A stretch of 47,814 nucleotides of DNA from Microthyrium microscopicum (taxonomy: Eukaryota). The position numbers were made by a program, and so were the translations under genes. Below are positions 24,087-47,814 of this stretch, piece by piece (position 1 is the stretch's first letter; each line of letters begins with the position of its first letter). The stretch lies in the NCBI GenBank assembly GCA_010405405.1, contig MU004238.1, positions 2,119,530 to 2,167,343 on the forward strand. Reading direction: 5' to 3'. The notes beneath the pieces were generated by a model. It saw only the letters and a program-made list of their open reading frames with translations, ran no database searches and was not told where the DNA came from.

Positions 24087-24769
24087 ACGTATCAAGTTCT
24101 GTGAGCCATCGAGTCGCGTGCGTCCCGTGAAGCGAGGTTGGTAATAAAAAATCTCTCGGTCTTTGTCTTCGCATTGAATCTTTTTCTTCTCAATATGGAT
24201 CTTTTCTCAGCTCTTTGATATGATGAAAGCACAAAGCTATTGTGGTAAAAGAAAACGCACTTGTACTTAGGAAATGAACATGCCTCACTGAATGTAGAAT
24301 GATAGAAAGATATATTCGGAGAGCAAATTCTACGGCTCCATACTTTTCATCTTTTCATGCACGTTACAGGCTCTCATCGATCTCATACATTTTTTAGAGA
24401 CTAGACTGTTATAGCAATGGCATTTACAAGATATGAGCTAGATGATGATGCTCGCACGTTCAGCAAATGCGCGAACACCCTACCTGCCTACCATAGCGTG
24501 GAGGGGAGGGTTTTGCAATTCATATTGCCATTATAACGATTCCTAAAATAGTACTTAGTACCTATTTTAGTCTAAGTACCTAGTATAATTATAAGATCTT
24601 AGCTAAGCTTCGCAACACTATTATATAATAAAAGAGATAGTTTAATTAATAATTTTTACTAGGAAAAAATCTTAAGATTCTCTTTTATAAACTATATTTT
24701 TATAGTTAAAATTAAGTAAAAGATAAATATAGTATTACTATATAAAAATAATTTAAGATATATTATTAC

Positions 24770-26610: not shown

Positions 26611-26689
26611 ATAGCTTTATAGATTAGTTATAATATTAGATTATATTATAAAATAAGAATAAAAAGATATAGTAATAATTATAATTATA

Positions 26690-27489
26690 TTTAGTAAAGA
26701 CTATAAAGTTATATCCTAGTTAAGCTATAATAGCAAAGAATATTTAGAGAAATAAGCTAAAAGATTAGAAAATAAAACAAAATTAATACTATACTTAAGA
26801 TATAAGATATATTTTACTTAGAAGTAAAAACATTTACCTCTACTACCTTTATCTCTTTTACTTTTACCTTTATATTTATAATATATTCTTAGATAGTATT
26901 ACTTATTTTTATATTATTTATAATTACTAGAATTATAAAGAAATAGTTTATATTAATATAATTTTTCTTCTTTAATACTAGCTTCTTATTATCTATCTCT
27001 AGCTATATAATTAATTATTTATTAGTAACTTTTTCTACTTCTAATTCTTTAATCTTTATATTAGTAGTATTAAGTTACTTTTATATCTTTTAAATAAGCT
27101 TATATTAGAAGTTATATTATTCTATTATTAGTAAAGTACTTAGCTATAATAATAAGTAGTTTGCTACCTTTAATTAGGTAGAAAGTAACTATATTTTATT
27201 CTTTAAGTTATTATATATTTTAGAGCCTAAATAAGAAGTTATATTACTAGCTTAAATAGCTTAGGTAGACTCTTATGTAGTTATATTATTAATACTTTTA
27301 ACTTTCTTTTTTACTAGCTTATTATTAGATACTAGGGTAGCTTATTTTAAAAGTATTACTAATAATTTTATATTACTCTTATTCTATATCTCTATATTAC
27401 TATTAATCTTATTTTTTATAGGCTTATCTTTATAAATAGAAGTAGCTAATTTTAGTAGTACTAATAATAACTTTTCTTTAATCTTATCC
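26690..27489 (-). pseudogene. 3' part of RIPed gene C1 (acidic repeat, coiled coil, intron ~26837-26757)
   Basis: The frame from 43854-46143 continues exactly when element B and one TSD are removed. Coiled-coil-like KIKELEVEKV, then a phase-0 GTAAAT...CTAAT...TAG intron. Confidence 0.6.
27385..27489 (-). repeat. 105-bp (35-codon) tandem repeat unit, separated from its siblings at 43859-44130 by element B
   Basis: Same unit as at 43859, 43964 and 44069, and ends exactly at the TSD. Confidence 0.9.
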
Positions 27490-27849
27490 TATTAGAGATT
27501 AGGGTTATAGAGTAGGTAAGAAGGTTATAAAATACTTAATAGATTAAGTATATAGAAATAGGGATAAAAGTAATTGCTAAGGAACTATAAAGGGATTCCT
27601 TAGCCTTTATCTTATTACTTAGGAACCTCTAAGATTCTTCTCTAAGCTAGAGTAGTCTATTTATAAGCTAAAGTACTTTAAAGGTATACTTAGCTACTAA
27701 TTATAATAGTTAGGGACCTATTAGTTCTTTTAACTATAGAATATACTAAAGCTAAAGAAGTAGCTCTACTAGCTTCTAATAGCTATTAAGCTAAGGTACT
27801 TAAGCTATAATACCTATCTTAAAGAGTTCGTTAAGTTTAATTCCTAATA
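27490..27849 (-). repeat. 3' LTR of element B
   Basis: TATTAG...CTAATA (RIPed TG...CA termini), direct repeat of 43494-43853. Confidence 0.95.
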
Positions 27850-29735
27850 TTATCCTCTTAATAAGAACCCTAATGTCTTTATAAGTCTTTAAAAGGTTAA
27901 CTACGTTCTAATAGTACTAATATACTTTAAGATATATTATATTATAATAGTATAAACTACTTAGCTACTATCTAGCTAGCTAAATAATAATTTTAGTAAA
28001 TCTTAGTAAACTTATTATTAATTTTAAACGTTACTTAAAGAGGTACCTCTTAAATAATGATTTATAAAGCTAAACGTTACTATTAGGTACTTGTTTAGAT
28101 TTATCTAGGTTTATTAAAAACTTAGGTATTTTTAAGTTTCCTTAAGCTATTATTTTAAGCCTACCTAATCTATAGGTTATTACCTACTAAGAACGACTTC
28201 CCTCTTTAGAACCTTTACTTATAGTAAGAATTAATATTAAAGCTTTCTTTAATAGAAAGTACTTAATAAAGTAAATATTTACTTTTTACTAATCTAACTA
28301 GGTAGAAGAGTATTAAATAAGGTATATTTAATCTTATAATTATATACTTTTTTTAATTCTTCTTTATTCTATTTTTATAGAATTAAGGTATATACCTAAG
28401 TAAACCCTAGCTAACTAAGTAAAGCTAACCTTTATAAATAGAGCTATAATATAAAAATAAGTCTTAACTAGTAATCTTAACATTTTACTAGTAGCTTCTT
28501 TATAAATCTACTTAGTATACTTTATATCCTTTTATATCTATTCTCTCTAATAGCTACTATAAAGAATAAAGTAGAAACTAATAAGGCTCTAAATAGATCT
28601 AGTTTATCTCTATCTAACGCCTTTAAGGTTTTTAAAGATACTATTAATTTACTAAAGACTCTAATTACTAGCGTTATAAAACTAACTAATTTTACTAATA
28701 CTAATATTACTAAAAAGGTAACTAACTAAGTTAAATTTATTAATAGTACTAAAATTAATACTAATAATAACTATATTAAACTATTAAGTTTAGGCTACTC
28801 TTCTTTAAAGCCTTCTAAATCTAAAGAGATTAAAAAGAATACTACTTAGGTTAAGAAAAAAGAAAAGATTTTTAAGCGTAATTATAGTAATAAGTCTAAA
28901 CCTTCTTAGCTTAATATAAAGTAAATATATATTAATAATATTATATATACTAATAAAGCTTAGACTTAGTTTAAATTATACTAAACTTTTTTTATCTATA
29001 ACGTATTAATTAATTATAGTTAGTTAAGTAGTAAACGTTTTCTATATAACTTTAATAATAATAAAATAAAACTATCTAATATAGATAAGTTTATTCTATA
29101 TAAGAATAAAACTAAATTAATTATTAAATAGTTTCTTTTACTTAATCTATATTAGTAATATACTAAAGTATATACTAAAACTTTCCTATATATTAATCTA
29201 AAGGATTAGTACTATATAGCTTATAAGAACTACGTATTAGCCTTTAAGGTTTAAAATAATTATTACTATATAACCTATAAGACTATAAAGTCTTATTAAT
29301 AGTATTTTAAGGTAAGTTATTTTTAATTAATTTAATTTAAATTTAATTATTACTAATTATTTTCTAGGTTATTTCTTATAAGAAGAGTATTACTAAGAAC
29401 CTTATTATAAAGCGTTATAATATATTAAAAGTCTATATACTTTATTAATAAACTTATAATAACGATCTAAGTAAATATAATATAGATTAGCTTCTTTATA
29501 CTAAAAAAATAGTTTATATTACTAATAAAAACGTTATAAAGGCTATCTAGATATAAGTAAACCTTCTTATTATACTTAGGTTTAAACTAATATAAATAAG
29601 TATATCTATATTAATGCTATAAATAATACCTTCCCTCTATATTCTAGTATTGCTAAGAATAGATATAATAATATCTATATAATGCTAATATATTATAAAA
29701 ATAGTAAGGATATCCTTAAGGCTAAGAAAGCTACC

Positions 29736-29961
29736 TGTAACGAGCTATAGAACTTAAGCAAGTAGATAATTAGATTATATTCTAGAATCTACGAATGGGA
29801 AAGAGAGAGAAGAAGATCTAGAAGAGCTATAGATCTACGAGGGAAGTAAGTCCGCTTAGTAGATCCTTAGGCGCGCTAACCTCCTTAGGTCTAGCGCGTA
29901 ATCTTATAATAAGATCTTTCTTATAATACTACTATGAAGCCTATAAAGAGGAATTATTATA
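29736..29961 (-). repeat. 3' LTR of element A
   Basis: Begins TGTAAC, direct repeat of 37163-37388. Confidence 0.97.
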
Positions 29962-30039
29962 TAACTCTTCTTTTTAGTATAGCTCTCTAGGCTATAGACT
30001 ACTAATTATATCTACTTTCTTAATCTATTTTATTTTAAT

Positions 30040-30082
30040 CTAGTCTAGCCTAGTTTAGTCTAGTTTAGTCTAGTCTAGTCTA
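30040..30082 (+). repeat. (YTAGY)n pentanucleotide array in the 3' UTR of element A
   Basis: ctagtctagcctagtttagtctagtttagtctagtctagtcta. Confidence 0.85.
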
Positions 30083-33000
30083 ATAAACTTTTTAATAATA
30101 AATAATATTTTAATCCTTCTATAGTATAATACTAACCTTACTAGTTATTTAGAGTATCTTAACCTTTAGCCTACTAAGGTAACTATTAAGAAGCATTAAT
30201 AAACTCTAAGATGTCCTTAGAATACTCTAGTTCTTAAGTCCTAGTAGTCTAGTAGTTAGTAGTCTTATTAATATAAAGGAATTAGTAGTATAATTATTTA
30301 CTCTTTCTAATTAGTAGGAACGCTATTAGAGTTATAATTAATACTATTACTAGTAGGCTCTAGTATTAGTAGTATCTAGGTAGAATATAGGCCTAGCTTA
30401 CTAAAGTACTAAGCGTAAAACTTAGTAATAAGCTTTAGTATATTCTTAGTAGCTATCTAATTATACTATTTAGCTTTATTATAATTAGTATACTTAATCT
30501 TATATTATAGCTTCTTATATTAATTAGTAAAGTAGCTATTAATAATAGCGTTAATAGACTATTTATTATTATTTATAGTTTCTTTAATAACTACTAGTAG
30601 TAAATTAGTATACTTAAGTAGCTTAGTATCGTCTATAATATAGTAGAGGACTTAGGCGTAAAAGATATTATATATCTTTATAAAAGAGAAGAGATTAAGT
30701 TTATAGGTAATAGTATTAATCTTCTTAATTATATAAAAGGAACTTATATTCTTATTATCTAGAGTCTTTAAAGGACGTAAAGTAGAGTAGTTCTATGTAT
30801 CTAAGCGAACCTAGTTGCTTAGTAATAGGTCTAGAGCTACGTAGTAATAGCGATTAGTGTATTCTGCTTATTAAGCTTATGCCTAGATTAATTACTCTAT
30901 TAAATAATTATATATCTTAGTACGACCTTTCTATATTATGTCTATATTAATAGCTTCTTTATTAGTAGCTATAGAGGCGTTTATAAGTTTTAGGAAGTAA
31001 TATAAGAACTTAAGGCCTAATTAAGGGTTAAATTTATTTTAAGCTTTAAAGGATATAACTCCTATAGTAGTATTTATAGCAAAATTAACTATAAATTTAG
31101 TAAAGAGTAGAAGAGCTACCTAGTTATCTTAATCTTAATTAATAAACGCGCATAGGAATTACTTAAGTACTATAACTAAGATTTCTATTATGCTATTAGT
31201 CTTAGAGTAGAATGCTATACTAAGATAGAGTATTATGCCTATGTATTTATATAAGTACTTCTAGAATATAGAGGTAAATTAGCTACTATAGTTTAAAAGA
31301 ATTATTAATAGCTAGCTAACAAGTTTCTATATATAGTTAATAAAGGCTAGTACTATTAAGTCTATAAATAAGTCTAGTAGTAAGATAAAACGTTAGGTCT
31401 ATATATAGTAATTAATAACTACTATAATATACTAATAGATTATACCTTAGTATAAATAATAAGGTAATAAAATAGTAAAGTTAATAGAAATATTAGACTA
31501 TATACGCTTAGGAAGAGAAAATTAATATAAGAAGCTTTACTTCTTTTAGTAGATAGGTTTAGTAAATACACATTTATAGCCTTTAATAAAGCTTTTAACG
31601 TTTTATAATATCTTAGGCTACTAGTAATCTTTTTATAGGTAGTAGTAAGTTATTACTACTCTACTATAGCTTATAGCTTTATAGCTATATGCGCTCTATA
31701 TAGCGCAACGCTAAAGCTTATCTTAAGGAATAAAGATCTAGTTATAGTAGAAGATTATCTTATTAGTAGCTACTACGTAGTCTCTAAGCTTAATTTACTC
31801 TTATTTTAAAGTACTAAAGGGTAAGAAGAGCTAGTAATTAGTCTTAACGTAGTAAATAGTAATTATTATTTTATTATGCTTTACTACGTTTATAATATCC
31901 TATAGAAACTAGTTGCTATTAAAATCTAGGAATAGGTTATCTCTTAAGGGATTAAGTAGCTTACCCTTAAGCGTCTTATTATTACTAAGAGACTCTTTTA
32001 TAGAATTAAGTAGCTTACTTATAAGATTAGAAATATCTAACTTATTCTAAACAATAGTAACTAAGTATAGTATTAAGAAATAAGTAGGTTTAATAAGCAA
32101 TATAGCTAACTTTACTATATATTTTATATTAAATTAGTATAGAAATAGTAAAGATTAGACCTATTAAGAGACGTAAAGGTTATTATTACTTTATAAAATA
32201 TCTTATAACTAATAAGTAAGGGTATCTACCTTTCTATTAGCTATACCTAAATAGTACTTTATCTTAAAGTAAAACTAGGAGAGGAACTTAGCCTATCTAG
32301 CTTATTATTAAAAGAGACGTTTTATTATTATAAACGTTTAAAGGTTATAGTAATTAGAGAATACTTAAATAAGGTTAATAAAGCTAAATAGCTCTAGTTC
32401 TTACTCTTTAAATATATAGATAATAGCTAAAAGCTCTTTATTATAAATATTATAATTATATTCTACTAAAGTTATCTTCTTTAAGAGGTACGTAACTAGG
32501 TAAAGCTTCCTATTATTATCTTTTTAAGAAAGAATTATAGTATAAACCTAATCTAAAGTATCTATTTCTAGCTATATTTCTTTTATATAGTTAAAATAAC
32601 GTAATATCTTAATAAACGTAAAGTCTTACTTTAGCTTCTTAAACGTACGTTCCTTTAGTTTATTAAAGTCTTAAGAGAAGATTACTATAGCGTCCTTCTT
32701 TATAAGTACTATTAGTAGTACTATAATTTTTAAATATTTAAGAATAAATTAGTAATAAAAGTTAGTAAAGCTAAGGAAAGCTTAAACGTCTTTTACTAAA
32801 AAGGAATATTACTAGTTAACTATGCTTTAAATCTTTTCTAGGTCTATCTTAATACCTTTAGTAGTAATAATTAGGCTAAGGTATTTAACTTATTAAGTAT
32901 TAAATTTATACTTTTAGATATCTAAGTATAATCCTACTTTACTTATTACTTCTAGGACTAGATAGGTATAGATAGTATAGCTAGCTTTAGTATTACTAAA

Positions 33001-36000
33001 GACTAATAGATTATTTATATAATCTATAATAAAGTCATCTAAATAATTAATTAGGATATAGTTAAGATAAGCTTAGAAAGTCTTTAGGACTTTAGTAAAG
33101 CTAAAAGGCATAACTTTAAATTTATATAACTTATAATAAGTTAGGAATATAGTTTTGTATTTATTACTAGGTTTAATATAGATATATATAAAGGTAGTAA
33201 TAATATTAAATTTAGAGAAATATTTTACGTAATAAATATAGGTAAGTATTTCTAATAGCTATAGAGGAATATTATAATTCTTTTATATAATCTTATTAAG
33301 TTTATAATAATTAATATAAACTTAAATTCTTTTTCTTAGCTTATATATATATAGTATTAGTATAGCGTAATATAACTTACTAGCTTAAACTTAATCTTAA
33401 CTAAGTATTTAATTAACATATTATTTAATAATAAGGAATTCCTAATAACCTAAGCTACTATAGTAGTGTTTAGGAATTATAGCATTAGAGATAATATTAA
33501 TAAAGTAATCTTATTTACTATAGTATAGTATAAGTTTATTGCCTAATTTTAGGTTAAAGACGTCTATATAATAATAATATTTCTTTAGTAAGTATTTAAG
33601 AATCTCTTTTTATAAAAGAGAAGGCTTATTATACTTTTCTTACTACTTTTTAAAATCCTTAGGTAAGATTTTGCCTAAGTTAATAGTAACGTCTTTCTTT
33701 AGTATAGGATTTAGATTTAGAGGTTTCTTTTCCTTTCTATTTTTAAAGTTATTAGGCTAGATTTTGCTAAATTACTAGCCTTATTCTAATAACTTAATAA
33801 AGGTAGTAACGCTAATTATAGTAACGTTTTTAAAGTAAAAGTCTATTAGATTAACTAAGTAGCCTTTATAATCTACTAAGATTAGGTAGCCTACTAATAA
33901 GTAATATATAAGGTAGTAGTCTAAGTTAAAGTAGATTTACTTCTTACTTTCTTTAAAAGTAATCTTATAGAGGTTAATTTAAGGGTTACTAAGGATAAGG
34001 TTATAGCTAGTAACGTTTATAATAAAGTAGTAGATTTATTTAATATACTCTTCTAAATAGACGTTAACTATAGTAACTTTATTAACTTTTATAATAGTTT
34101 TATTATTAGCTAATTATATAATTTAGGGGGTAGAAAGATTAATAGTAGGGATTCTATATTATTTAATAAAGTTAGGGTAAATAATTCCTATTACTTTACT
34201 ACTAGTATCTATAAGAATATTAATTTTTAAGTAGTAGCTTTATCTTAGAGAGAATATAGTACTAGAAGTAGTCTATTAGTTACTTATTATAAATATAGTA
34301 GCTACTTCTTAGAGACGAAAATTATATACTATAGAAGTAAGGGATATCTTAATAATAGCTAGTTTAATATTATTAAATATAATAGGCTCTAAGGATAACG
34401 CTTATTAGAGATTACCTTCTAGGCGTTAGATAGTCTTATTAACCTTATATTAGATTTATTCTTTAAAGAAAACTAGCTTAGGGTTAGGTTCCTCCTTCTT
34501 CTATTACTAATTATATACTTCTTACTTATTTAGCTCCTTTACGCATTTCTATAGAAAAGCTTTTAGTTTTCTATATTATTACTATAATTATACTTATTAT
34601 AATTATCCTCTATAGTTAGGAACTAAGGAGATTAAGTAGTAATTTAATTATAGATAATAGCAAACTCTATAATAATAGTAGCAACCTTTAGTTATATTTT
34701 AGTATCTAAAAGAGCGTCTCTATCTTTATATAGTGCTAAGTTATACTAATAGCTATAACTCTTCTTTTTATACTTTATATAATAGTTATTAGCCTTTAAG
34801 GCGTTATAGATATTTAAAGAGTAGTTAAACTTTAGTTTCTATTTACTACTCTTAGCTACTAAATAATTATTATTATTATAGCTTTGTAGATTAATAAAGG
34901 GGACGTATTTAATATAATAAGCTATAGTATATAAGCTCTTAAGGAAGTCTATAAATGTTTTTAATTCTATAAAGAGCACTCTCTCTATAAACTTTAAAAG
35001 TAGAAGGAGACGCATTTTAATAATCTTATCTTAATTACTAAGCTTAGCTTCTTATAAGTTCTTTAAGAAGTAAGCTAGAAATTATTTAAGCTTCTTAATA
35101 GACTTTATTATAGCTTCTTAACTTTTAAGCTAGGTCTTAGTAGTAATATAGCTATCTTTAATACTATACTTATAATCTAAATTAGACTATATCTCTACTA
35201 TAGATAAATATAAGTTAGTTAACTTATAATTACTCTACTTGTTAATAGTACTAAATGCTTAATCTTTTATTACTCCTTAAATAACTTAGATTTTAGAGGC
35301 TTTTATAAGATAAACTTATATGTTATTATTAAGGTAATCTAATACTTTATCTTTTTAAGCATAGTACTTCTACTTATTCTTTCCTAAAAAGAGTAAAGGC
35401 TTATTATCCTATATCTTAAGGAAAGAGGCGCTACTAATTAAGTTAAGATTAAAAAAGAAAATAGTTTAACGTAAGTCTAGTATTCCTAAAGATATATTTA
35501 AGTTAGGTTAGTCTATATCTTAAGCTAAGGAGATTTAACAAAATAGATTATTATTTACTAACTCATTACAATTAAGATAAAGATTAGTTACCTTAGTAGT
35601 TAAGGGTTTCTTTTAAAGGGCGTTAACCTAAGCTTAAAGAATAGTAGCTTTATTTATCTTTTTTTATAGAGCCTTATAGTATTTACTAATCTTATTAACG
35701 TAAGTAGTAAGTACTTCCTTAAGTAGATTATTATCGTATTATAGTTCCTATACTTTTTAATAAGTAGTTGCTACTTTCTTAAGAGTAATAGCGTTATTTT
35801 AGATTTACGCTTTAAAGTAAGTAATCTACTTTACGCGTTTATTATTAGTTTTAGCTAAGTCCTATATTTCTCCTTAAGCTTCTAGAACTTCTTCTTAAAG
35901 AGTATAGATTAAGTCTATATTATAAGTATTTATATTCTACTTAATTTTAAAGAGATAGGCTATAGTTTAGAAGGCTAATAAAGAAGCGTAAAGCTATATA

Positions 36001-37162
36001 ACTAAGTTGTCTAGTATTAATTCCCCTTTTAATAAATATTCTAAATCTATATCTAATTTAATTAGGTAGTAAGAGTAATAATAGAGATCTAATTACTTTT
36101 CTTTATAATAAAAGTATACTCCTACGTTCTTTAGCTTATCGCCTTCTTTACTAGGCATCTTTTATACTTAAGTAGCTTAGAAGATTAAAGGGTTCTTATT
36201 AATAGTTAAAGTAACTAGTTAATTAAGGTTTACTACTATAAGGTAATAAGATATTAATATAAGTAGTACTCTAGGGCCTTTAGCTTATTAACATAGTTCT
36301 ATTAGCTATTTATATATTTTAAAAGAAAGTCTAGTATTATCGTTAGGTTAAAAAGGAGCTAGTAGTTAGTTATTTCCTATATTTATTTAGTTTAGTAAAG
36401 TTATTTAACTAGTATTTTAAGGAGCATCTTCTAACGCTTTAGTCTCTTTACCTTTATAGCCTCATTCTAATAGATAATTATCTTCTAACTTATCTTTATC
36501 TTCTAATAACGCTTTTAAGTTTAGTTCTAGCGATTTTAATAGTCCTAAGACGTTCTCTACTAAATCTACTACTTTCTAGGTAGTATTTAGTTATATTATA
36601 TTCTAGGTATTAGGTTTACTTTAATACTTAGTATATATAGTAAAAGGGTAACGTAATAGAAATAAGTAACGCAAACGTATAGGAGATAGAGATTAACGCT
36701 AATTATAAGGCTAAGTATAAATAATTAAAGATAGCAAGTAGGCTATATAGCTATTAACTTAGGTCTATTAAGTAGAAGCCTTATTAGCTATAATTATAAA
36801 TAATAAAGAAGAGTACTAGGAGAGAATACTTATTTATTTAACGCGTTTTAATAATAAGTATATTAAGTATAATTATAGATATTTAATAGTAGTATAGAAG
36901 ATAAACTTTAGTATTCTATAGAACTAAGGATAAGGAGCAATTAACGCTTAGACTATTAATAAGTTAAAGAGTATTAAGAAATCCTAACGCTCTAATTAGA
37001 TAGGGGGTTAGCAGAGCTAATAAATTTAGTAAATCTATAAAGAATCTTTAATAGAGTTTAAGACTATATGCATAGAATATTAATCTATATAGGTACTTCT
37101 TTAGAAGTAAATTCTAGGGTATGTAGTATAAGCATATAAATATTTAAATAGTTTATAGATTA

Positions 37163-37388
37163 TATAACGAGCTATAGAACTTAAGTAAGTAGATAATTAG
37201 ATTATATTCTAGAATCTATAAACAAGAAAGAGAGAGAAGAAGATCTAAAAGAGCTATAGATTTACAAGGGAAGTAAGTTTGCTTGGCAGATCCTTAGACA
37301 CGCTAACTCCCTTAGGTTTAGCGCGTAATCTTATAATAAGATCTCTCTTATAACACCGCTATAAAGCCTATAAAGAGGAATTATCATA
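37163..37388 (-). repeat. 5' LTR of element A
   Basis: Same length as the left LTR. About 25 differences by manual count, all transitions, no indels. Confidence 0.97.
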
Positions 37389-40300
37389 CTACCTATTACT
37401 CTAAAGTAGCTTTACTTAAAGCTACTATTAGTACTACTTATATTAAGCGCTATAATAACCTTTATACCTATTATTATAAATTTAAACTACTTATAAATAA
37501 TAACTAAGAAAGTATAAGTACTCTAATTATATTACTTAAATTCTAATTAACTTTATTTTAGGTTATAGATACTTTATTACGTTAAATTAGTAAGCTTACT
37601 AACGTTATAAAGATATTTACTTCTTAGTAGGCTAATAGTACTAAAAAGAAGAAAAAGGCTTTTAATACGAGTTAGTTTATAATTCTCTAAAGCTAGATTA
37701 ATAAGTATAAGCTTAGTTTAAGTAAGCAAATAGTTCTTTGTTGCTATCTAGTTATAATAGGTTAGATTAATTCTAATAATAACGATTTAGAAACTAAAGA
37801 GTCTAAAGAATAGATATAATATCTAGTAAATATATCTAATATTAAGTTAATATATCTAGTATTTAATAGATAAGGTTAATTATATTTTAGGTTTATTATA
37901 AGCTATTTATTAGTACTTAGTAGCTATTAGGTTCTATTTAAACTAATTTATATAAATAGTATAAGATAGTTTCTCTTAATAAAATACTTTCTTAAATTTC
38001 TAAGTCTTCTCTTATAAACCTAGATAGTACTTAGGAGTATATTCTTATAAACTTAGAATTATTATTTTAAGGTATTTAAAGGATACCTTTTTAAGGGTTA
38101 ATAAGTAAAGCTAAAGTAATATTAATAGTTTTAGATTTAGGTTTAAAATTAGTTCTATATCTAGTTTTAAATTTTTTCTAAGTCTTTTCTATTTAGACTA
38201 TATTTATATATATATCTATAGGAACCTATTTATTCTAAAGTATTATAATAATACTATTTAAATACTATTTAGTTTTATTTAAATAAGCTTATCTTAATTA
38301 TAAGTAAAATAAATTATTATTATATATCTATATATACTATAAAGTAACTATGCTTTTATACTTATCCTCTCTATAAAAAGAAGCTCGTTCTAAGTCTTAT
38401 TATAACTATTTTAGTCTACTTAGCCCTTTCTTAGCTAGTATAAGTTTAGTAAATACTAAAAGCTTCTTTAGACGTTTTCTTAGCTTCTTAAGCTCTAAAT
38501 AGGGTTTATCTAAGTTAAGTTATTCTAATTTATATTTAATTACTTCTATTAGAGCTAATTTAGCTAAAAAGATACTCTTTTTCTTTAACTTCTCTTAATA
38601 GCGCTTTAATATAACTAAGAAAAGGTTACTAATAGGTTCTTAGCTTACTTTAAATATAGAATAGTTTTTTTACTTTACTTTATAGTAATAGATACTATCT
38701 TTATTAACCTTATATCTAATTATATCTTTAACTTTATAGTAATTAGTCTCTTTAAAGTCTAAGATTTCCTAAAATAAGATTATTTACTATAAGAAATATA
38801 TATTAAGTATATATTATTATAATAAGGAGATATAAAAGATATTATAAACTAGAGCGCCTTTAAGTAAGTTAATATAGTATATATTATAGTTAATAACCTC
38901 TATTACTTTAAAGAGGCTTATATACTTAATATTTAGTTTCTTTTTAGACTTAGCTATTCTAATATTCTTTATATTAAATAAAACTTAGTTATTTACCTTT
39001 AAAGTAACATCCTTATAGCCTTTATTATAGTATTTAGCTTATAGAGTTTAAACATTTTCTAAATAAGCTTAAAAAGCTCTTTAAAGAGATAGAATATATT
39101 CTACTAGTTCTTTTACGTTAAGAGTAATACTTATTAGGTACTCTTTAAGTACTTCTAGTACGTATAAGTATTTACTTATATATATTATAAATAGAGTAAT
39201 ACTAATTAAGTTATATATACTATTATTATATATAAATTTAGTAAAATTAAGCTTTTTAGCCTAATTATTCTACTCTTAGCTATAATAGATATATAAATAG
39301 TATTTAATCTCTTAGTTTTAATGCTCTATTTACTTATCTATCTAAGGTTAAAACGTAGTAAATAACTTCTATTAGATTCCTAAATAATAGAGGAATATAT
39401 TCTAGAACTTAAAGATAAATATAAAGCCTCTATTAAATATAATTATATTTAATACGCTATAAAGTTATACTACTTTATATAAAAAGAGCTTAGCAAGATT
39501 ATTTACATCTATATCTTTATAATAAAGTATATAATAAGCTATTTTAGTTAGCTTATAGATAACTACTATAATAAAGTTATATAGCTATCCTTAGAAGACG
39601 CTTAAAAATAAGTTAATAATAAAATTAACTATAATATCTTTCTAAAGGGCTATTAGTACTAGTAAAGATAGAAAGAGTCTATTTTAGCCTTATTTAATAG
39701 ACGTATTTTATTTATACTCTAAATAGGCTATATAGTACTCTTAGATATCCTTATTAATATTATCCTAAGTATAATAGCGTTAAATCTTCTCTAATATCTT
39801 ATATTAGCTTCTATAGCCTCTTTCTAAGAGATTATTATAAAAATATTAGAAAACTTAGACTTTACTATTCTTTATAGTAACCTCTATCTATAAATAAGTT
39901 TATTTATTTTCTATTAGCTTAGTAAAAGAGCTATTAAGTACATCTAATATAGTAATAATATCTACTTTTTAAGAATTATTTCTTAGATACTATAATAAGG
40001 TACTAATAGATATAACTAAAGCGTTAATAAACCTAATTAAGTCTTTATTAGACTTAGGCGCCTTAGATAGTTATAATTTATCTTAGATAAGGTTTAATAA
40101 GGTATTTATAGTTCTTTTCTACTTTATATTATCTAAAGAGACATAGTCTAGTCTTTATAAAGGTCTATTTATAAAGTTTATCTTTCTTAAATAATATTTA
40201 ATATTAAACTTAAACTTAGTAAGAAAATCTACTTATCTTATATATATAGTAAAGATATTTTAGGATATATTAAGTAAATAAAGGTTTATATAATCTATTA

Positions 40301-43300
40301 GGATTAAAAACTTTAGAATACTATATAGGTACTTATAAAAAACTCTTATAGAGTTAATAATAGCTAGAAACTTCTACTATAGAGTCCTATAGTAACTCTT
40401 AAGTCTTAATAGCTTTCTTAAGTAAAACGCTATAAGTTACTATTAGTCTTCTTAACCTAGCTTAATTTATTTCTAGCTTAAAATACTATAAATTACTTAT
40501 CTAAAAGCGTCTATTTTTAGATAAGTCTTTAATATAAGATTATAGTAAGTAAAAATTAATACGTATATAAAGGTAGCCTTTAAGTTATTAAAAAATTAAA
40601 TAGCTTTAAGAGAAAGATTAATAGAAACTAATTCCTTATTATATAGCTATTAGCTTTTTAAGGCCTACCCTAAAAGCTTCTTAATTAAAGAGTTTAATAA
40701 AGAAGTAATATAAGAGAAGTTAGTAATAAAATATTAATAATAGTTTATAAAGCTAATAAACTTTCTTACTTAGTATATATTACGTAGTGTTAACTAATCT
40801 ATAACTATTATAATTTATTCTAATTTTATTATAATACTATCTAAAGTTATAATATATTTAAAGTACTTAGTTTAGTCTATATAAAAGCTATACTTTAATA
40901 ACTTAATATATAACTTAAACTTAATAAGTCTTTTAAGTACCTCCTTTATATATTTAATATAATCTTCTTTATTCTTAAAGAAAATAAAAATATTATTAAA
41001 GTAGATAATATAAGTTATATTAATAAGGCTATATAGGGCTTAATTAATATATACTTAAAAAGTAGTAGAAACGTTAGTAAACTTAAAGAGTATTACTTAA
41101 TACTTAAAGGACCTATATTTAGTTTAAAATACTATCTTTTACTCATTACTAATATAAATATAAATATAATAATATATTTTATAAAGATCTAGGCTTATAA
41201 AGAACTTAGCTCTTAATAATTAATTTAATAACTCTTTAATTAGTAATAAAGCATAATAGTCCTTAACTATAATATTATTTAAGCCTTTATAGTCTATATA
41301 TAAATATAAGGTACTATCCTTCTTCTTTATAAAGATAATTAAGGCTCTAATAAAAAACTAAGATTTATAAATAAATCCTCTCTTAAAATCTTTCTTAAAG
41401 TATTTATATAGAATAACTAGTTTTGCTTCTAATAAGTCGTAAATAAGCTAATAAAGTATACTTATACCTAACTTAAGATTAATAACTAAGTCCTATAAAC
41501 TATATTCTACTAAATTCTATACTTTATCCTTACTAAAGGCTTTTATAAGCTTCTTATAGTAATATAGTAAGTCTTATAGACTAACATAGTTTAATAAACT
41601 TACTAAATACTTAAAGAGCTAAGTAGATCTATCTTAACCTAATTAGAGTAACTCTTTTAGGAAGATAAATCTAATCTTATTATAGTAGTTATCCTTTAAA
41701 TAAATAAAGAATAAAGTCTTAGCCTTAAAGTCTAGTAAAAGGTTCTAGTCCTTAAGCTAAGGTATCTTTATAATAATTATATAGTATAATAAATCTATAA
41801 TATAAAATAATACTTCATTAGTCTTTAAGATCCTATTAAAGTTAACTACTATTACTTTAGTAGTTACTATCCTATAAATAGTTATAAGTATATTATTTAG
41901 ATACTTAGTTAACTCCTCTAGAAAATAATATATCTCTAATTAAAGCTTCTTAGCTAAGGCGTAGTCTATAATATTAAAATAGGCTCTACTATTTATTATT
42001 ATACTTTATAGTACATAATCTTAGCCTACTTAATTCTAAGTAGTTCTTTATAAGATAATTTAGCGTAATTTCTTTAATTAGTATACCTTCTTATCTAGAA
42101 TCCTCTTATTCTTTATTACTTCTAAGACTTAAGTAATAACGACTTTATAAAAGTTACTAAGAAAGTTAAAAACTAGATTATTTATAATAAAAACTATAAA
42201 ATCTTAGTTAGCTACCTTATAGCTTAGTCTTTTCTCTTAATTCTCTTTAGCTTTAAGTTAAGGTAATTATAAGCTATATAACCTACTTTACTATAATTCT
42301 AATACTTACTTTTACTAGAGTTACTAAGAAATAGCTATTTAACTCTAGGTATTATATTACTCTTTAGTTTATCTAGCTTTAAAGCCCTATTAGAAGGGCT
42401 TAGTCTAGACTTCTTTAACTTATTCCTTTAAGAACCTTATTAAGTCTTATCCTTTAAATCTATAAATATTAAACGCTATTTAGAGAATTTACTATTCTTA
42501 ATATCTTTTTTAAGAGTAGTTAGTATCTTCTAGTTACTAATAAATCTTAAATACTTTAAAATATATTAAGATAAGGCTTCTTTAGCTATCTTAACTATAT
42601 AGTTTAGGTTAAAGATTATATTATTTCTAAGATAAGTAAATAGTCTATTACTAAAGAATAATAAATAAATTAATACGTTATTAATCTTATACTTATAAAA
42701 GAGAAGTACAAATTTATTAAAGTATTCTTAGAAGGTTTTTTTCTTTATTATAGTAGTTAAGAAGCTCTAAAAGACCTTATAACGCTTCTTAATAGGCAGA
42801 CTAAGAAGTTTAAGAGCCTATTATTCTATAAGGGCCTATATAGGTTCGTATTAGTCTAGTTTAGCTAACTAGATCTAGAAATTAATATAATTATTCTAAA
42901 TAGGTTACATAACCTTCTTATTAAGATAATTATAAGCTTAGAGAACTACTAGATATAAGTCCTCTTTATATTTCTTTATAGTAAGTATATTAGTTATATT
43001 AAAGACCTAATCCTTATACTCTTATAAACTTTTAGCTTTATATATCTATAGTTTATTACTACTATAAGCTAATTTAGAGCTATTATATTTAATATAGGCC
43101 AAAATAGCTAGGCTAGCGTTATATTAACTCTATTTATTAATCTACTTAACTAAATAAAGTTCTCTATATTTATAAGCTACTTTTATTACTTTAAATTATT
43201 TAATTTTAAGTATATTACGTATTTACTATATTTTAGCTTATAGCTATTCTAACGTCTCTTTTATATTTACTACTAGTTCTAAATAAGCTTATTCTATATT

Positions 43301-43493
43301 ATTAGGATTACCTATAGAGCTACTTAGTCTTACTAGAGTTAGTATAACTATATCTAGTATAACTAGATTTAATCTAGCTAGTTTTATTTTAAAAGCCTTA
43401 CCCTTAGGTTTTATTAGTTTATTACTTATAACTAATCGTAGTATTTTAAAGAAAAAGCTTTATAAATACTTTATTAGTAAGAAGTAATTATAA

Positions 43494-43853
43494 TATTAGA
43501 GATTAGGATTATAAAGTAGATAAGAAGGTTATAAAATACTTAATAGATTAAATATATAGAAATAGAAATAAGAGTAATTACTAAGGAACTATAAAGAGAT
43601 TCCTTAGCCTCTATCTTATTACCTAAAAACCTCTAAGGTTCCTCTCTAAGCTAAAGTAGTTTATCTATAAGCTAAGGTACCTTAAAAGTACGCTTAGCTA
43701 CTAATTATAATAGTTAAGGACCTATTAATTCTCTTAACTATAGAATATACTAAAGCTAAAGAAGCAGCTCTACTAACTTCTAATAGCTATTAGGCTAAAG
43801 CACTTAGGCTACAATGCCTATCTTAGAGAGTCCGTTAGGTTTACTATCTAATA
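43494..43853 (-). repeat. 5' LTR of element B
   Basis: 360-bp direct repeat of 27490-27849, followed by TSD TATCC. Confidence 0.95.
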
Positions 43854-43858
43854 TATCC

Positions 43859-44130
43859 TATATCTTTATATTACTATTAATCTTATTTTCTATAGGCTTA
43901 TCTTTATAGATAGAAGTAGTTAGTTTTAGTAGTACTACTAGTAACTTTTCTTTAATCTTATTTTATATCTTTATATTACTATTAATCTTATTTTTTATAG
44001 ACTTATCTTTATAGATAGAAGTAGCTAATTTTAGTAGTACTACTAGTAATTTTTCTTTAATTTTATTCTATATCTTTATATTACTCTTAACCTTCTTTTT
44101 TTAAGGCTTATCTTTATAGATAGGAGTAGC
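43859..44130 (-). repeat. 105-bp coding tandem repeat, ~2.6 copies (plus one at 27385-27489)
   Basis: Unit starts TATATCT at 43859, 43964 and 44069. Confidence 0.92.
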
Positions 44131-45759
44131 TTATTTCGCTAACTTTTATAAAGATTTTATAATAGCTTTAATAGATATATTAAAGATACTATTATTTAGA
44201 TTCTTTATTATAATAACTTTAGAGCTTTAGCTAGTAGTTTTTTTAGTAACTTTAATATTTTTAGTCTTAGCCTTAATAGCTATATCTTCTTTAATTATAT
44301 CTTTAATTATAAAGAGAATATATACTATAATTATTTTAGTATCTTATCTCTTAAAGTATTTAAAGCAGCCTTTAGATAAATTAGCTACTAAGTTAGTTAA
44401 TTCTTTAGAATTAATTTATATACGTAGTCTTAGCTTTATTAGGCTAAATTAATATTTACTTATAGCTATATTTACTTTACCTTTCTTAGGCTTCTTTTTT
44501 ATTTTTATATTAAGAAGAAACTTTTAAGAGAGTTTAGATTAAATTTCTTTATATAAGTAATCTATAGTATTCTCTACTATACTAGTATTGTTAATAATTT
44601 ATTAAAGTTTAGTTTAATCTAAATCTTTAATTTATAAAATAGACTTAAAAGTTATAAAGACTTTATATTTATATATAATATCTAAGCTTTTATTAAAGTT
44701 ATAAAGTTCTTCTTTATTTTTAAGATCTTATTACTTAGTCTTAGTAATAATAACCTAAAGCTTCTTTATTAAGATCTTTTTCTATTTAGTAGTAGACTTT
44801 TTATTATACTTTTATTATATATAAAACTTACTAGTAATATCTAAAAATACTACTAGCTTAATAGCTATAAATATAGAAGGGACTTAAATATATAGGTCTT
44901 TTTTATCTAGTTTATTATAAAAAAATACTAATATATTTATATAACGTTAAGAATAAATAAGATTACGTAGCTTTAATAGTTTATTTTAAGCTATAGTAAT
45001 ATATTATTCTCTAATATATACTTACTCTTTATATATATATATATCTTCTACTAAATAAAGTTATTATTTAATATTAAAAAAAGCGTAATTAATTTTAAAG
45101 ACTTAGCTACCTTCTCTATCTTTAAGTACTATTATAATAAGAGCAACTTAAGTATATATCTTATTAAAGTATATATTTAGTAATAACGTTACTAATTCTA
45201 TATCTTAAGCCTATATAAAGATTTTCTAGCCTAGGGCGTTATATACTTTTACTAACTCTTTATTTTCTTATAGTAGTAAAGTACTATCTAGAGTATATAA
45301 TTATAAAAAGAAGAGATAATATAATATATCTTTATAGCCTTTACGCTTAAATATATATTATAATTATAGGATTATAAAGTACTTATTTATAATCTTAAAA
45401 CTAGCTTTATAGTGAAACTAAGAGTTATTTCTTAAGAAGCTATACTTAATAAAATCTAGGTTTATAATTTATTATATCTAATATAGACTTATAGATTTAC
45501 TATTTACTAGGTAAATTTTAAGATATTTCTTAATATAGTTAATATACTATAAATAATTAACCTAATTAAATTTTAGTAGCTAAATTAATAAAAGATTTTT
45601 CTTATTATTAAATTACTTAAAGGTCTTTTTTTTAGTCTTATTTTATAGCTATTTAAGACGCTTATTATTCTTAGTTATAGTTTACTTAATATATTTTTAG
45701 AGATTTTAGTTTGCTTTAACTCCTTCTTTCTATATAACTTATTTTTTCTTTATAGCTAG

Positions 45760-45828
45760 CTTTTTAGGTTTAGACTTAAGCTTTTTAGGTTTAGACTTAG
45801 ACTTTTTAGGTTTAGACTTTAGCTTTTT
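45760..45828 (-). repeat. 21-bp coding tandem repeat x3 (xKSKPKK as read)
   Basis: CTTTTTAGGTTTAGACTT at 45760, 45781 and 45802. Confidence 0.9.
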
Positions 45829-46732
45829 ATTACTTCTAGCTATCTTGTTATTAATTATAATATTAGAAAACGTATTCTTATCTTTATTTATTATAAGCTC
45901 TTTAATAATATAACTAGACTTATAAGGTTTAAATTTCTTAGCTTATACTAATATAGGTTTATTTTTCTTAGCTTTTTTATTATTCTCCTTATTTTACTTA
46001 AATTCTAATATTTCTTAAAGAGTTTCTCTTATATTAGGATTATTTTTAAGTTACTATTACTACTTTTTAGTAAAGAGTTTTTATATTAGCTTTAGATTCT
46101 TAGGAAGGGCTAGTTTATTTTTAGCGTTTTTAGTTCTTACTATAGTAAGAATAGGAAGTCTATTAAAGTTAGCCTTTTAGCTCTAATAAATATAAAAAAA
46201 TAAGGCTTTAAAACTTATATATTAGGTAGAGAAATAGGTTAATAAGAAATAGATTATAATAGTAATATAGAGTTATATAAATTAAGTATAATTAGTAGTT
46301 TTAGCTATCTTTATAGTTATTCTTAAAGACTTCTAATAATTATATAGAGATAGTTAAAAAGAAATAATAGTATAGGTCTAAAAAGCTTTATACTATATAG
46401 CTAGCTAACTTTACTTATTTAATAATTATAATCTAAGCTTACTTAACTAAAGTAATACTTTAAGCTAAGTAAGTAACTAGTATAAAAGAGTATAATAAGA
46501 TTAAGTAAGCTTATAAATAATAACCTACTATATTAGGAAATTAGCTCCTATCTACTTTTAACTCCTAAAATAGTAGTAAGTACCTATATAGATTATATTA
46601 CGTTATTATAGCTAATAATAAAATTAAGTTATTAAATTTATATAGTAAAAGAGTTTAGTATAAAGAATAGATAGTACTATAAGTTTAATAGGATTATTTT
46701 TAGTTTCTATAATTATAAGCTTATAGATAGTA

Positions 46733-46762
46733 NNNNNNNNNNNNNNNNNNNNNNNNNNNNNN
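46733..46762. other. Assembly gap (30 N)
   Basis: Run of N. Confidence 1.
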
Positions 46763-46763
46763 A

Positions 46764-47814
46764 ACGTAAAATAATTAAATTAAGTAGACTTATAGCTAAC
46801 GTTAAGTTTTAAAATAAGAAGAAGTTAAGAGTATTAATATATTATAGTATTAACTAAAGTTTATAGAGTATAGCTATAACGTAGTTTTATTAAATATATT
46901 AATATTAAGGCTAATAAAGAAGCTTAGTATTAAAGTAATATAAGGTATATATATATTATAATATTAATTTCTTAGTTTTAATCGTAAGAGTACTATAATA
47001 TAACTAGACGTAAAGTATATATAACTAATAACTTACTCTATAAGATATATAGTATTAACTATATCTAAATCTTAAAGTTAATTATTACTAAGTATTATAA
47101 TAGTATAATATATTAGCGTACGTTTTAATTTAGCTAAGTTATTTTTAATATTATTAAAATAATAATATAAAGAGACATTAAGATTAATATAGAGATTTCG
47201 TCTAAAGAGAGACTTAAGCTTTTATTTTTTTTATTTAATAAATTTTACTAATAACTAAATAAGTAGCTAGATAATATATTTATTAATATAGACTATTAAG
47301 GAGTTACTAAGTTTTAAGACTTACCTATTTAGTATCCTATATTTCTAGGAAATTCTTTACTACTTAGGTCTAGCATTATATAAAGTCTTAGTATTAATAT
47401 TATAAAGACTATATAAAGATTTATAGTATTAAATTAAGAGCTTAATAATCTCTTTTAGTACCTATTATAGCTTCCTTAATTTTGCCTTATAATATTTATT
47501 AAAAAAACTCTAAGTCTATAAATAAAGCATCCTTAATAACTATAAATTTATAAGTATAGGCTATAATATAGTAGTTACTAAAGAAGGAATTTAGTATATA
47601 CTTAAAGTATATACTATACTATATAACTTATTTTATAATTTTAAATAATAGCTTTTATTATAGAAGTTATAAGTAACTATACCTAAGAGCTATACTTAAC
47701 GAAATACTATATAAGTAACGAAGTAAGATCTTCTATTATAGAAATAAGTTTATACTACTAGGTTTAGTAATTAAGACAAGATAGACTTTCTTATAATTTA
47801 TCTATATAGTAAGT
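46764..47814 (+). pseudogene. RIPed coding relic C3, unidentified, open at both ends
   Basis: One plus frame reads protein-like for ~350 codons with TAA/TAG stops only (e.g. RDIKINIEISSKERLKLL, IGYNIVVTKEGI). No motif recognised. Confidence 0.4.

What the first reader, a model, noticed from the sequence alone, without database searches (positions are those of the whole stretch)
38050..38745. Integrase tail with chromodomain + AT-hook + possible second chromo-like module
Seen: after the chromodomain (YKVKDIIRYKVNKDSIYYYKVK*KNYSIFKVS*EPISNL, ~38740-38620) the same frame runs ~190 more codons. At ~38432-38409 it reads AAG AAA GGG CTA AGT AGA CTA AAA, which reverts by RIP-type changes to KKGPGRPK, a canonical AT-hook. 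At ~38320-38215 it reads ...LFYL*LR*AY...L*NK*VP (possibly WNEWVP), reminiscent of chromo-barrel ends. Inference: an integrase reading both heterochromatic histone marks and AT-rich DNA would be steered into RIPed isochores, which is where this copy landed. That would let RIP create the element's safe-harbour targets.
Basis: partly seen in the sequence, partly recalled or inferred. Interest (0 to 1): 0.7.

Follow-up and report, generated by a model that had tools for sequence, protein, structure and literature searches.

The report
Dead chromovirus integrase ending in AT-hooks
This is the mutation-wrecked end of a fungal jumping gene whose integrase carries a histone-reading chromodomain followed by a short basic tail with one or two AT-hook motifs (small motifs known to bind AT-rich DNA), a tail shared by many intact relatives; the proposed long extension with a second chromodomain-like module is not there.

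Summary
Partly right. The quoted letters are exact, and the chromodomain is real (RIP-aware profile rank 1 of 46,326).

The AT-hook idea holds, but mainly through relatives:
- 71 of 293 chromodomain-bearing relatives carry G-R-P in the tail after the chromodomain. Residue-shuffled tails give 8.0 +/- 2.6.
- The motif lies 0-12 residues from the C-terminus.
- The window's 75-codon tail aligns with relative P0272, which ends in a hook (z 6.4, 0 of 1000 controls).

Sister copies in public contigs show a second, better hook upstream at 38483-38463. It reads R-G-R-(L, from P?)-K-K-P.

It needs three reversals that I did not observe.

Coding signal stops right after it. Pol-frame stops are 2 of 75 codons before and 15 of 119 after. 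So the "190 more codons" and the second chromo-like module are not supported.

Targeting of RIP-made AT-rich heterochromatin is plausible but untested here.

Eight literature searches found no description of an AT-hook on a chromovirus integrase. This scan noted the same arrangement before on another genome (e1-7587238).

The parts
43488..44285 (-). 5' LTR of element B, with 105-bp internal tandem repeats. The outer end is approximate.
   Evidence: Matches 27237-27850 at 72-91% identity.
40869..41330 (-). Reverse transcriptase of B pol (P0001 residues 891-1044).
   Evidence: Pfam RVT_1, E 1.7e-06.
40257..40595 (-). RNase H of B pol.
   Evidence: Pfam RT_RNaseH, E 9.4e-06.
38811..38987 (-). SH3-like C-terminal integrase domain.
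   Evidence: Pfam SH3_Tf2-1, E 4.2e-07, 30.4 bits.
38595..38738 (-). Chromodomain. The barrel ends with (W)EP at 38634. The Trp codons now read as stops.
   Evidence: Pfam Chromo E 0.14. phmmer alignments run to query residue 511. RIP-aware profile rank 1 of 46,326.
38409..38633 (-). Basic Lys/Leu (formerly Pro)-rich C-terminal tail of pol, 75 codons.
   Evidence: Pol frame has 2 stops in 75 codons, against 17 of 74 and 11 of 74 in the other frames. Aligns with the P0272 tail: plain score z 6.4, RIP-aware z 5.7, 0 of 1000 controls each. Most sister copies have CCT (Pro) where the window has CTT at 38491, 38461 and 38443.
38463..38483 (-). Hook 1 (tail codons 51-57). The window reads L R K R L K K. 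Sister copies show AGG GGA at codons 52-53 and the window keeps CGT at codon 54. This gives R-G-R-(CTA: L, from P?)-K-K, followed by P.
   Evidence: Loose ends at 38470 and 38480 and the rows for 38478 and 38461, compared by hand. RIP-aware profile rank of the window copy alone: 457 of 46,494.
38409..38432 (-).
   Evidence: Letters confirmed. RIP-aware hook profile rank 13 of 46,494. The form R-G-P-G-R-P occurs twice in relative P0160.
38397..38408 (-). Stop cluster TAG TTA TAA TAA. Most likely the end of pol.
   Evidence: Relatives end 0-12 residues after G-R-P, median 7. Stop density returns to background after this point.
38050..38396 (-). Non-coding spacer between pol and the post-pol module. 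It includes the claimed second chromo-like stretch.
   Evidence: 15 stops in 119 pol-frame codons. No chromodomain signal. No relative aligns here.
29738..37388 (-). Element A, a second chromovirus nested in B's post-pol region. It has 224-bp LTRs and a tail of the F-H-x-x-Y-P-x-K-P type without a hook.
   Evidence: LTR pair at 89% identity. RT and integrase similarity to B. Tail reading, and best hook-profile rank 203.
27237..27850 (-). 3' LTR of element B.

Best explanation
Window 27237-44285 is one RIP-killed Ty3/gypsy chromovirus (element B) on the minus strand.

Its pol ends with, in order:
- the integrase;
- a chromodomain (38738-38595);
- a tail of about 75 codons that was basic, proline- and lysine-rich and probably disordered (38633-38409);
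- the pol stop at or just after 38408.

The DNA from 38396 to 38050 is non-coding spacer, not more integrase.

Shown here: the domain order, the coding footprint of the tail, its homology to hook-bearing tails of intact relatives, the specific over-representation of G-R-P in those tails, and the disorder of the hook region in one modelled relative.

Inferred: when the element was alive, the chromodomain held the integration complex on H3K9-methylated nucleosomes and the hook(s) sat in the narrow minor groove of AT-rich DNA. Insertions would then have been biased to AT-rich heterochromatin such as RIPed repeat blocks.
For: Relatives:
- Across three searches I collected 317 proteins. Of these, 293 have a chromodomain plus a tail of at least 5 aa, and 71 of the 293 have G-R-P in that tail (64 with basic or Pro flanks).
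- The five other orders of the same three residues occur in 4-11 tails each. Residue-shuffled tails give 8.0 +/- 2.6, maximum 17 in 1000 shuffles.
- G-R-P occurs 4.85 times per 1000 aa in tails and 0.15 upstream.
- It lies 18-78 aa after the chromodomain and 0-12 aa from the C-terminus.

Link to B:
- Hook bearers are enriched among B's best hits: 4 of the top 10 judged, against 9 of the other 121 (Fisher p = 0.009).
- FastTree puts B in a starred clade of 35 relatives, 19 with G-R-P. Three more have one-step variants such as R-G-R-S or R-G-R-L.
- B's tail aligns with the P0272 tail, which ends in a G-R-P hook: plain z 6.4, RIP-aware z 5.7, 0 of 1000 control windows each.

Sister copies:
- About 170-180 contig pieces at 80% likeness or more were laid in each of runs X1-X3.
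- The differences are nearly all transitions.
- Pro codons replace the window's Leu codons at 38491, 38461 and 38443 in most of the depth.
- AGG GGA stands in sister copies at tail codons 52-53 and the window keeps CGT at codon 54. This gives R-G-R before CTA-AAG-AAG.

Other:
- Hook 2 ranks 13 of 46,494 in the RIP-aware profile scan. That predicts about 0.018 such sites in the 63 in-frame positions where relatives carry hooks.
- Pol-frame stop density falls to 2 of 75 in the tail and rises to 15 of 119 after it.
- In the AlphaFold2 model of relative P0002 the chromodomain blocks have mean pLDDT 82-90. Residues 522-536 and 540-542, which take in the R-G-R-P-P-K-K-R-R-G hook, are below 50, and the whole last 21 residues have no secondary structure.
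Against: - Hook 2 needs three reversals that I did not see in any copy. One of them, AGT from GGT, is in a CpT rather than a CpA context. No variant row was shown for 38388-38442, though 114 rows were cut from the table.
- In hook 1 the Pro is also only inferred: all three versions read CTA or TTA there.
- The RIP-aware scan is permissive. Twelve other sites score as well or better, and hook 1 in the window copy alone ranks 457.
- B's nearest rows on the tree (P0159, P0162) end in K-K-R-K-R-R without G-R-P. The motif needs 18 changes on the tree, at least 12 of them forced by starred branches.
- 222 of the 293 relatives lack G-R-P, and 139 of 293 end in a run of three or more K/R. The conserved property may simply be basic charge.
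- The Pfam AT_hook model reaches only 9.3 bits (cut-off 17.4) on P0010 and was not reported for the five other relatives scanned.
- No DNA-binding, histone-binding or insertion-site data exist here.
- The hook-less element A sits in the same AT-rich block.
Confidence: 0.7

Rival explanations
1. The basic C-terminal tail is mainly a nuclear localisation signal or an unspecific nucleic-acid or nucleosome binder. The G-R-P core is a frequent but functionally incidental variant of a K/R-rich tail.
For: - 139 of 293 relatives have three or more consecutive K/R in their last 25 aa, and 222 of 293 lack G-R-P.
- B's nearest tree neighbours end in K-K-R-K-R-R.
- The motif is gained or lost many times: 18 changes on 90 rows.
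- Integrase C-terminal nuclear localisation signals are known for yeast Ty elements (recalled, not checked here).
Against: - G-R-P is about nine times more frequent than in residue-shuffled tails of the same composition. It is 6-18 times more frequent than the other five orders of the same residues.
- Its flanks are stereotyped: R-R-G-R-P-P-K and G-R-G-R-P-P-K.
- A localisation signal would not need that core. The two functions are also not exclusive.
Confidence: 0.2
2. Chance resemblance: pol ended right after the chromodomain, and the hook-like letters lie in non-coding RIPed DNA.
For: - Almost any A/T-rich codon can be 'reverted' to G, R, P or K.
- Twelve other sites in the block score at least as high as hook 2.
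- Some relatives end 20-24 aa after the chromodomain.
Against: - The pol frame has 2 of 75 stops in the tail, against 17 of 74 and 11 of 74 in the other frames.
- Without any reversal, the first 27 tail codons align with P0272 at z 6.4, 0 of 1000 controls.
- Sister copies show Pro codons and R-G-R directly.
Confidence: 0.05
3. One reading: the integrase continues for about 190 codons and carries a second chromo-like barrel at 38320-38215.
For: In plain reading, the best chromodomain-profile score in that stretch falls in the pol frame (start 38261, rank 71 of 46,326).
Against: - With 73 in-frame positions tried, that rank is about p = 0.11. The RIP-aware rank is 680.
- Stop density is at background: 15 of 119.
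- There are three stops in the four codons right after hook 2.
- None of the 150 best hits aligns here.
- In relatives G-R-P lies 0-12 aa from the C-terminus.
- The only relative seen with a long tail (P0160, 156 aa) shows no second Chromo stretch in Pfam.
Confidence: 0.03

Closest known systems
Chromoviruses: Ty3/gypsy LTR retrotransposons with a chromodomain at the integrase C-terminus (for example MAGGY and the Tcn1-like elements)
   Same: The order RT, RNase H, integrase, chromodomain, plus LTRs. Aromatic positions of the chromodomain are kept, with Trp now a stop codon. The chromodomain is reported to read histone marks and steer integration; I saw this as a passage citing Gao et al. 2008 in PMC5053271. 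The 2008 paper itself is not held.
   Different: A basic tail with one or two AT-hooks follows the chromodomain. Two fungal or interkingdom surveys have no occurrence of the word 'hook' as a motif: PMC3248453 and PMC2864245 (term searches of the full text).
LEDGF/p75, the host tether of lentiviral integrase
   Same: A histone-mark reader (PWWP) combined with AT-hooks places an integrase on chromatin. I saw this in the figure legend and passages of PMC5053271 and in search listings.
   Different: LEDGF is a separate host protein that binds integrase through its own domain and, according to the section heading and abstract listings seen, tethers lentiviral complexes to actively transcribed chromatin. 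Here reader and hook are part of the integrase itself and would point to silent chromatin.
AT-hook proteins (HMGA type; Pfam PF02178)
   Same: In relatives, a core R-G-R-P with K/R flanks in a disordered stretch. The definition of the motif is recalled.
   Different: There are one or two copies only, at the very C-terminus of a polyprotein. The Pfam model stays below its cut-off.
   Same: A dead chromovirus integrase whose relatives carry chromodomain plus AT-hook; that note counted 29 of 165 judged.
   Different: Different genome and element. Here the tail is longer and a second hook is seen through sister copies. My own count is 71 of 293.
Boty-like elements with an antisense gene after pol
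   Same: Earlier notes of this scan place such a post-pol module at 27850-37950 of this window, directly downstream of the stretch studied here.
   Different: It is not part of the integrase tail, and I did not test it.

Membership tests
Chromovirus (Ty3/gypsy, Metaviridae) | pol order RT, RNase H, integrase in one frame | tested here: met
   RVT_1, RT_RNaseH and SH3_Tf2-1 all hit in one frame of P0001.
Chromovirus (Ty3/gypsy, Metaviridae) | Chromodomain C-terminal to the integrase | tested here: met
   Pfam Chromo E 0.14, below its cut-off because of RIP. RIP-aware family profile rank 1 of 46,326. Relatives' Chromo hits reach E 3.9e-13.
Chromovirus (Ty3/gypsy, Metaviridae) | Flanking LTRs | tested here: met
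   27237-27850 matches 43488-44285 at 72-91% identity. Target-site duplication not examined.
AT-hook (PF02178) | Core G-R-P (typically R-G-R-P) with basic flanks | tested here: inconclusive
   Met in 71 of 293 relatives. In B, R-G-R of hook 1 is seen only by combining copies and its P is inferred. Hook 2 needs three inferred reversals.
AT-hook (PF02178) | Match to the Pfam model above the gathering score | tested here: not met
   P0010 scores 9.3 bits against a cut-off of 17.4. Nothing was reported for the five other relatives or for B. A single 13-residue motif rarely reaches this whole-protein cut-off (my own knowledge).
AT-hook (PF02178) | Lies in an unstructured segment | tested here: met
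   In the AlphaFold2 model of relative P0002, residues 522-536 and 540-542 have pLDDT below 50 and the last 21 residues have no secondary structure. This concerns the relative only.
AT-hook (PF02178) | Binds the minor groove of AT-rich DNA | not testable with these tools
   Needs a binding assay.

The most novel reading that the evidence does not exclude
A large lineage of fungal chromoviruses carries, in the integrase itself, a two-part address: a chromodomain for H3K9-methylated nucleosomes and a C-terminal AT-hook for AT-rich DNA. RIP turns repeats into AT-rich, H3K9-methylated DNA. The genome defence would then build the landing pad for the next insertions, and AT-rich isochores would grow as self-reinforcing transposon sinks.
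Probability: 0.3. Interest if true: 0.7.

Novelty: new variant of a known kind. Interest (0 to 1): 0.45.

Why it matters
Why transposons pile up in AT-rich, gene-poor compartments of fungal genomes is usually put down to selection and to RIP acting after insertion. A DNA-composition reader fused to a histone-mark reader on the integrase would add active targeting.

The idea can be tested:
- peptide-DNA binding assays;
- chromodomain-swap assays in fission yeast with and without the hook;
- insertion-site statistics of hook-bearing against hook-less lineages in one genome.

It is also a natural, in-cis counterpart of the LEDGF/p75 tether of lentiviruses.

The copy in this window is dead, so its value is as a pointer to the family trait.

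Tried and rejected
- No whole genome is held, so B copies could not be collected genome-wide. Flanking AT content of A-family and B-family insertions could not be compared.
- Reads laid on 38200-38800: no variant row is shown for 38388-38442, but 114 rows were cut. Hook 2 is therefore neither confirmed nor refuted by sister copies.
I took the top sites, 45795 (minus) and 28844 (plus), for lysine-rich stretches without reading them.
- RIP-aware tail alignments were weak or not significant for other relatives. P0002: 29 of 200 controls as good. P0166: 4 of 200. P0160: z 2.8, 4 of 1000. P0273 without reversal: 196 of 1000.
- Pfam on all six frames of both flanks (24500-27236 and 44286-47814): 0 families in 12 translations. 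What B inserted into remains unknown.
- Look-ups of earlier notes by sequence found nothing.
- P0160's long tail is not shared: other hits cover only 45-83% of the query, most 62-72%.
- Gao et al. 2008 is not held.
- One search term was malformed.
In one search one control window probably overlapped the locus itself, since the null maximum equalled the observed score. One search excluded 38250-38800 from the controls.
Full report
**Setting.** From about 24.5 kb to its end the window has 17-25% G+C. The left half has 41-53%. The AT-rich block holds a Ty3/gypsy element on the minus strand, called B here. Its LTRs are at 27237-27850 and 43488-44285. A second, related element (A, 29738-37388, with 224-bp LTRs) is nested in B's post-pol region on the same strand. 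One minus-strand frame, read with X at stops (P0001), carries RVT_1, RT_RNaseH, SH3_Tf2-1 and Chromo in that order. No whole genome is held for this window.

**Checking the observation.**
- The chromodomain is real. Pfam alone is weak (E 0.14). A position matrix from 137 relatives' chromodomains, scored so that each window codon may be read back through C>T/G>A changes, puts this site first of 46,326 positions in the RIPed block (63.3 against 45.3 for the next).
- The two broken Trp codons and the Tyr positions line up with the family consensus.
- The frame does not run 190 more codons in any meaningful sense. It has 2 stops in the first 75 codons after the barrel, against 17 of 74 and 11 of 74 in the other frames. 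TAG, TAA and TAA then fall within four codons. After that the pol frame has 15 stops in 119 codons, like the other frames.
- The stretch said to recall a chromo-barrel end scores at chance level: best pol-frame rank 680 RIP-aware, and 71 plain among 73 positions.

**Relatives.** A full HMMER search of 1.84 billion representatives, using integrase plus tail with X at stops, gave 3347 hits. None of the 150 listed aligns past the chromodomain. Their own C-termini are informative, however. The best hit ends ...K-R-A-R-G-R-P-P-K-K-R-R-G, and hits 9 and 10 end in similar motifs. Two further searches seeded with such relatives brought the total to 317 proteins.
- 293 of the 317 have a chromodomain and a tail of at least 5 aa. 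Of these, 71 carry G-R-P in the tail, 64 with basic or Pro flanks.
- In the first two sets G-R-P sits 18-78 aa after the chromodomain (median 33) and 0-12 aa from the C-terminus (median 7).
- This is not composition. The other five orders of G, R and P occur in 4-11 tails each. Shuffled tails give 8.0 +/- 2.6, maximum 17 in 1000.
- The density is 4.85 per 1000 aa in tails and 0.15 upstream.
- A different tail type, F-H-x-x-Y-P-x-x-P, is found in 63 relatives, of which 3 have G-R-P. Element A has this type.
- Named sources are few. Parastagonospora nodorum has the hook. Curvularia clavata, Rachicladosporium and Elsinoe fawcettii lack G-R-P. Most proteins come from unnamed metagenomic contigs.

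**Does B belong with the hook bearers?**
- Among the judged hits to B, 4 of the top 10 carry the hook, against 9 of the other 121 (Fisher p = 0.009; rank test p = 0.003).
- A FastTree of integrase plus chromodomain (90 relatives plus B; relatives' tails left out) puts B in a starred clade with 35 relatives, 19 of them with G-R-P. Three more have one-step variants such as R-G-R-S or R-G-R-L.
- B's branch is long (1.95), so the tree alone is weak.
- The tail gives independent evidence. Without any reversal, B's first 27 tail codons align with the tail of P0272 at z 6.4 (0 of 1000 control windows). RIP-aware, 56 codons align at z 5.7 (0 of 1000). P0272's tail is 62 aa long and ends in a G-R-P hook.
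- Against this, B's nearest tree neighbours (P0159, P0162) end in K-K-R-K-R-R with no hook. The motif needs 18 changes on the tree, so it is evolutionarily labile.

**The hooks in B.**
About 0.018 such sites are expected in the 63 in-frame positions where relatives carry hooks.
- Hook 2 needs three reversals. Two are CpA-type (CTA from CCA). One is CpT-type (AGT from GGT).
- The form R-G-P-G-R-P that it would give occurs twice in relative P0160.
- Public contigs of the same organism gave about 170-180 pieces at 80% likeness or more in each of three runs. Their differences are almost all transitions.
- Among the 33 listed sites where the window has A or T and other copies have G or C, 21 are CpT and 7 CpA. 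I read this as CpA sites being mutated in nearly all copies, so that they no longer vary.
- Most of the depth has CCT (Pro) where the window has CTT (Leu) at tail codons 48, 58 and 64.
- Two loose contig ends at 38470 and 38480 read AGG or AAG, then GGA, then TAT, where the window has AGA AAA CGT (compared by hand). Taking the G/C state at each transition gives R-G-R, followed by CTA (Leu, or a former CCA Pro), K, K and P.
- This hook 1 (38483-38463) needs a single inferred reversal in the saturated context.
- No variant rows were shown for 38388-38442, and 114 rows were cut. Hook 2 therefore stays unverified at the DNA level.

**End of pol.** In relatives G-R-P lies 0-12 residues from the C-terminus. 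In B the stop cluster follows hook 2 directly, and the coding footprint ends there. Every stop could in principle be a RIP product, so the exact last codon is uncertain, but only by a few codons.

**Structure.** An AlphaFold2 model of relative P0002 (18-sequence alignment, mean pLDDT 70) shows the following. The 10-residue blocks of the chromodomain (461-510) have mean pLDDT 82-90. A helix spans 498-520. The last 21 residues, with the hook, have no secondary structure, and 522-536 and 540-542 have pLDDT below 50. There is no second folded module.

**Mechanism.**
- Shown: the anatomy above.
- From established knowledge: AT-hooks bind the minor groove of AT-rich DNA (recalled). Chromoviral chromodomains read histone marks and steer integration (passage citing Gao et al. 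2008 in PMC5053271; the 2008 paper is not held). RIPed AT-rich DNA nucleates H3K9 methylation in Neurospora (recalled).
- Inferred: the two readers act together to favour AT-rich heterochromatin.
- The main rival is that the basic tail is a nuclear localisation signal or an unspecific binder. 139 of 293 tails end in K/R runs. The two roles are not exclusive.
- Nothing in this window tests targeting. The flanks have no recognisable family, and the hook-less element A sits in the same block, inside B.

**Novelty.**
- Eight full-text searches coupling AT-hook with chromodomain, chromovirus, LTR retrotransposon, gypsy, integrase, polyprotein or RIP were answered. By their titles and listed abstracts, the papers they returned are reviews of retroviral integration and of LEDGF/p75, or unrelated work. 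None describes an AT-hook on a retrotransposon integrase.
- Two surveys of fungal and plant chromoviruses have no such term in their text.
- Subscription journals and curated repeat databases were not searchable.
- This scan noted the same arrangement before in another genome (e1-7587238). It also noted a different AT-hook placement in a third genome (e1-7640953).

**Verdict.** This is a new variant of a known kind, seen here in a dead copy. The AT-hook part of the finding stands and is extended. The long tail and the second chromo-like module do not stand.

Noticed in passing
window 43756-44176: The 5' LTR of element B holds three to four tandem copies of a 105-bp unit. The matching stretch of the 3' LTR (27282-27492) is the single reference copy of that repeat family.
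   Followed up: no
window 46733-46762: A run of 30 N, probably an assembly gap, inside the AT-rich block.
   Followed up: no
window 38205-38336 and 39175-39346: Two stretches match their own reverse complement at 62-68% identity: AT-rich imperfect palindromes. The first lies in the spacer just after the end of pol.
   Followed up: no
window 38385-38387: The window copy keeps CGA where about 88-96% of the laid contig depth reads TAA. This copy is less mutated than most at that codon.
   Followed up: partly
window 38200-38800: Sites that still vary between copies are mostly in CpT context (21 of 33), with 7 in CpA. This suggests that CpA sites are saturated by RIP in this family.
   Followed up: partly
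window about 28837, plus strand: Second-best RIP-aware chromodomain-profile score (45.3) and a high plain hook-profile score (28844). Both lie on the strand opposite pol in B's post-pol module, where earlier notes place an antisense gene. This may be low-complexity sequence.
   Followed up: no
protein P0160 (relative, from a 42-kb contig): A 156-aa tail after the chromodomain carries two K-R-G-P-G-R-P hooks 33 residues apart. The tail is not shared by other hits.
   Followed up: partly
window 30159-30504, minus strand: Element A's chromodomain is followed by a short tail of the F-H-x-x-Y-P-x-K-P-G type without a hook signal: best rank 203 of 46,494.
   Followed up: partly
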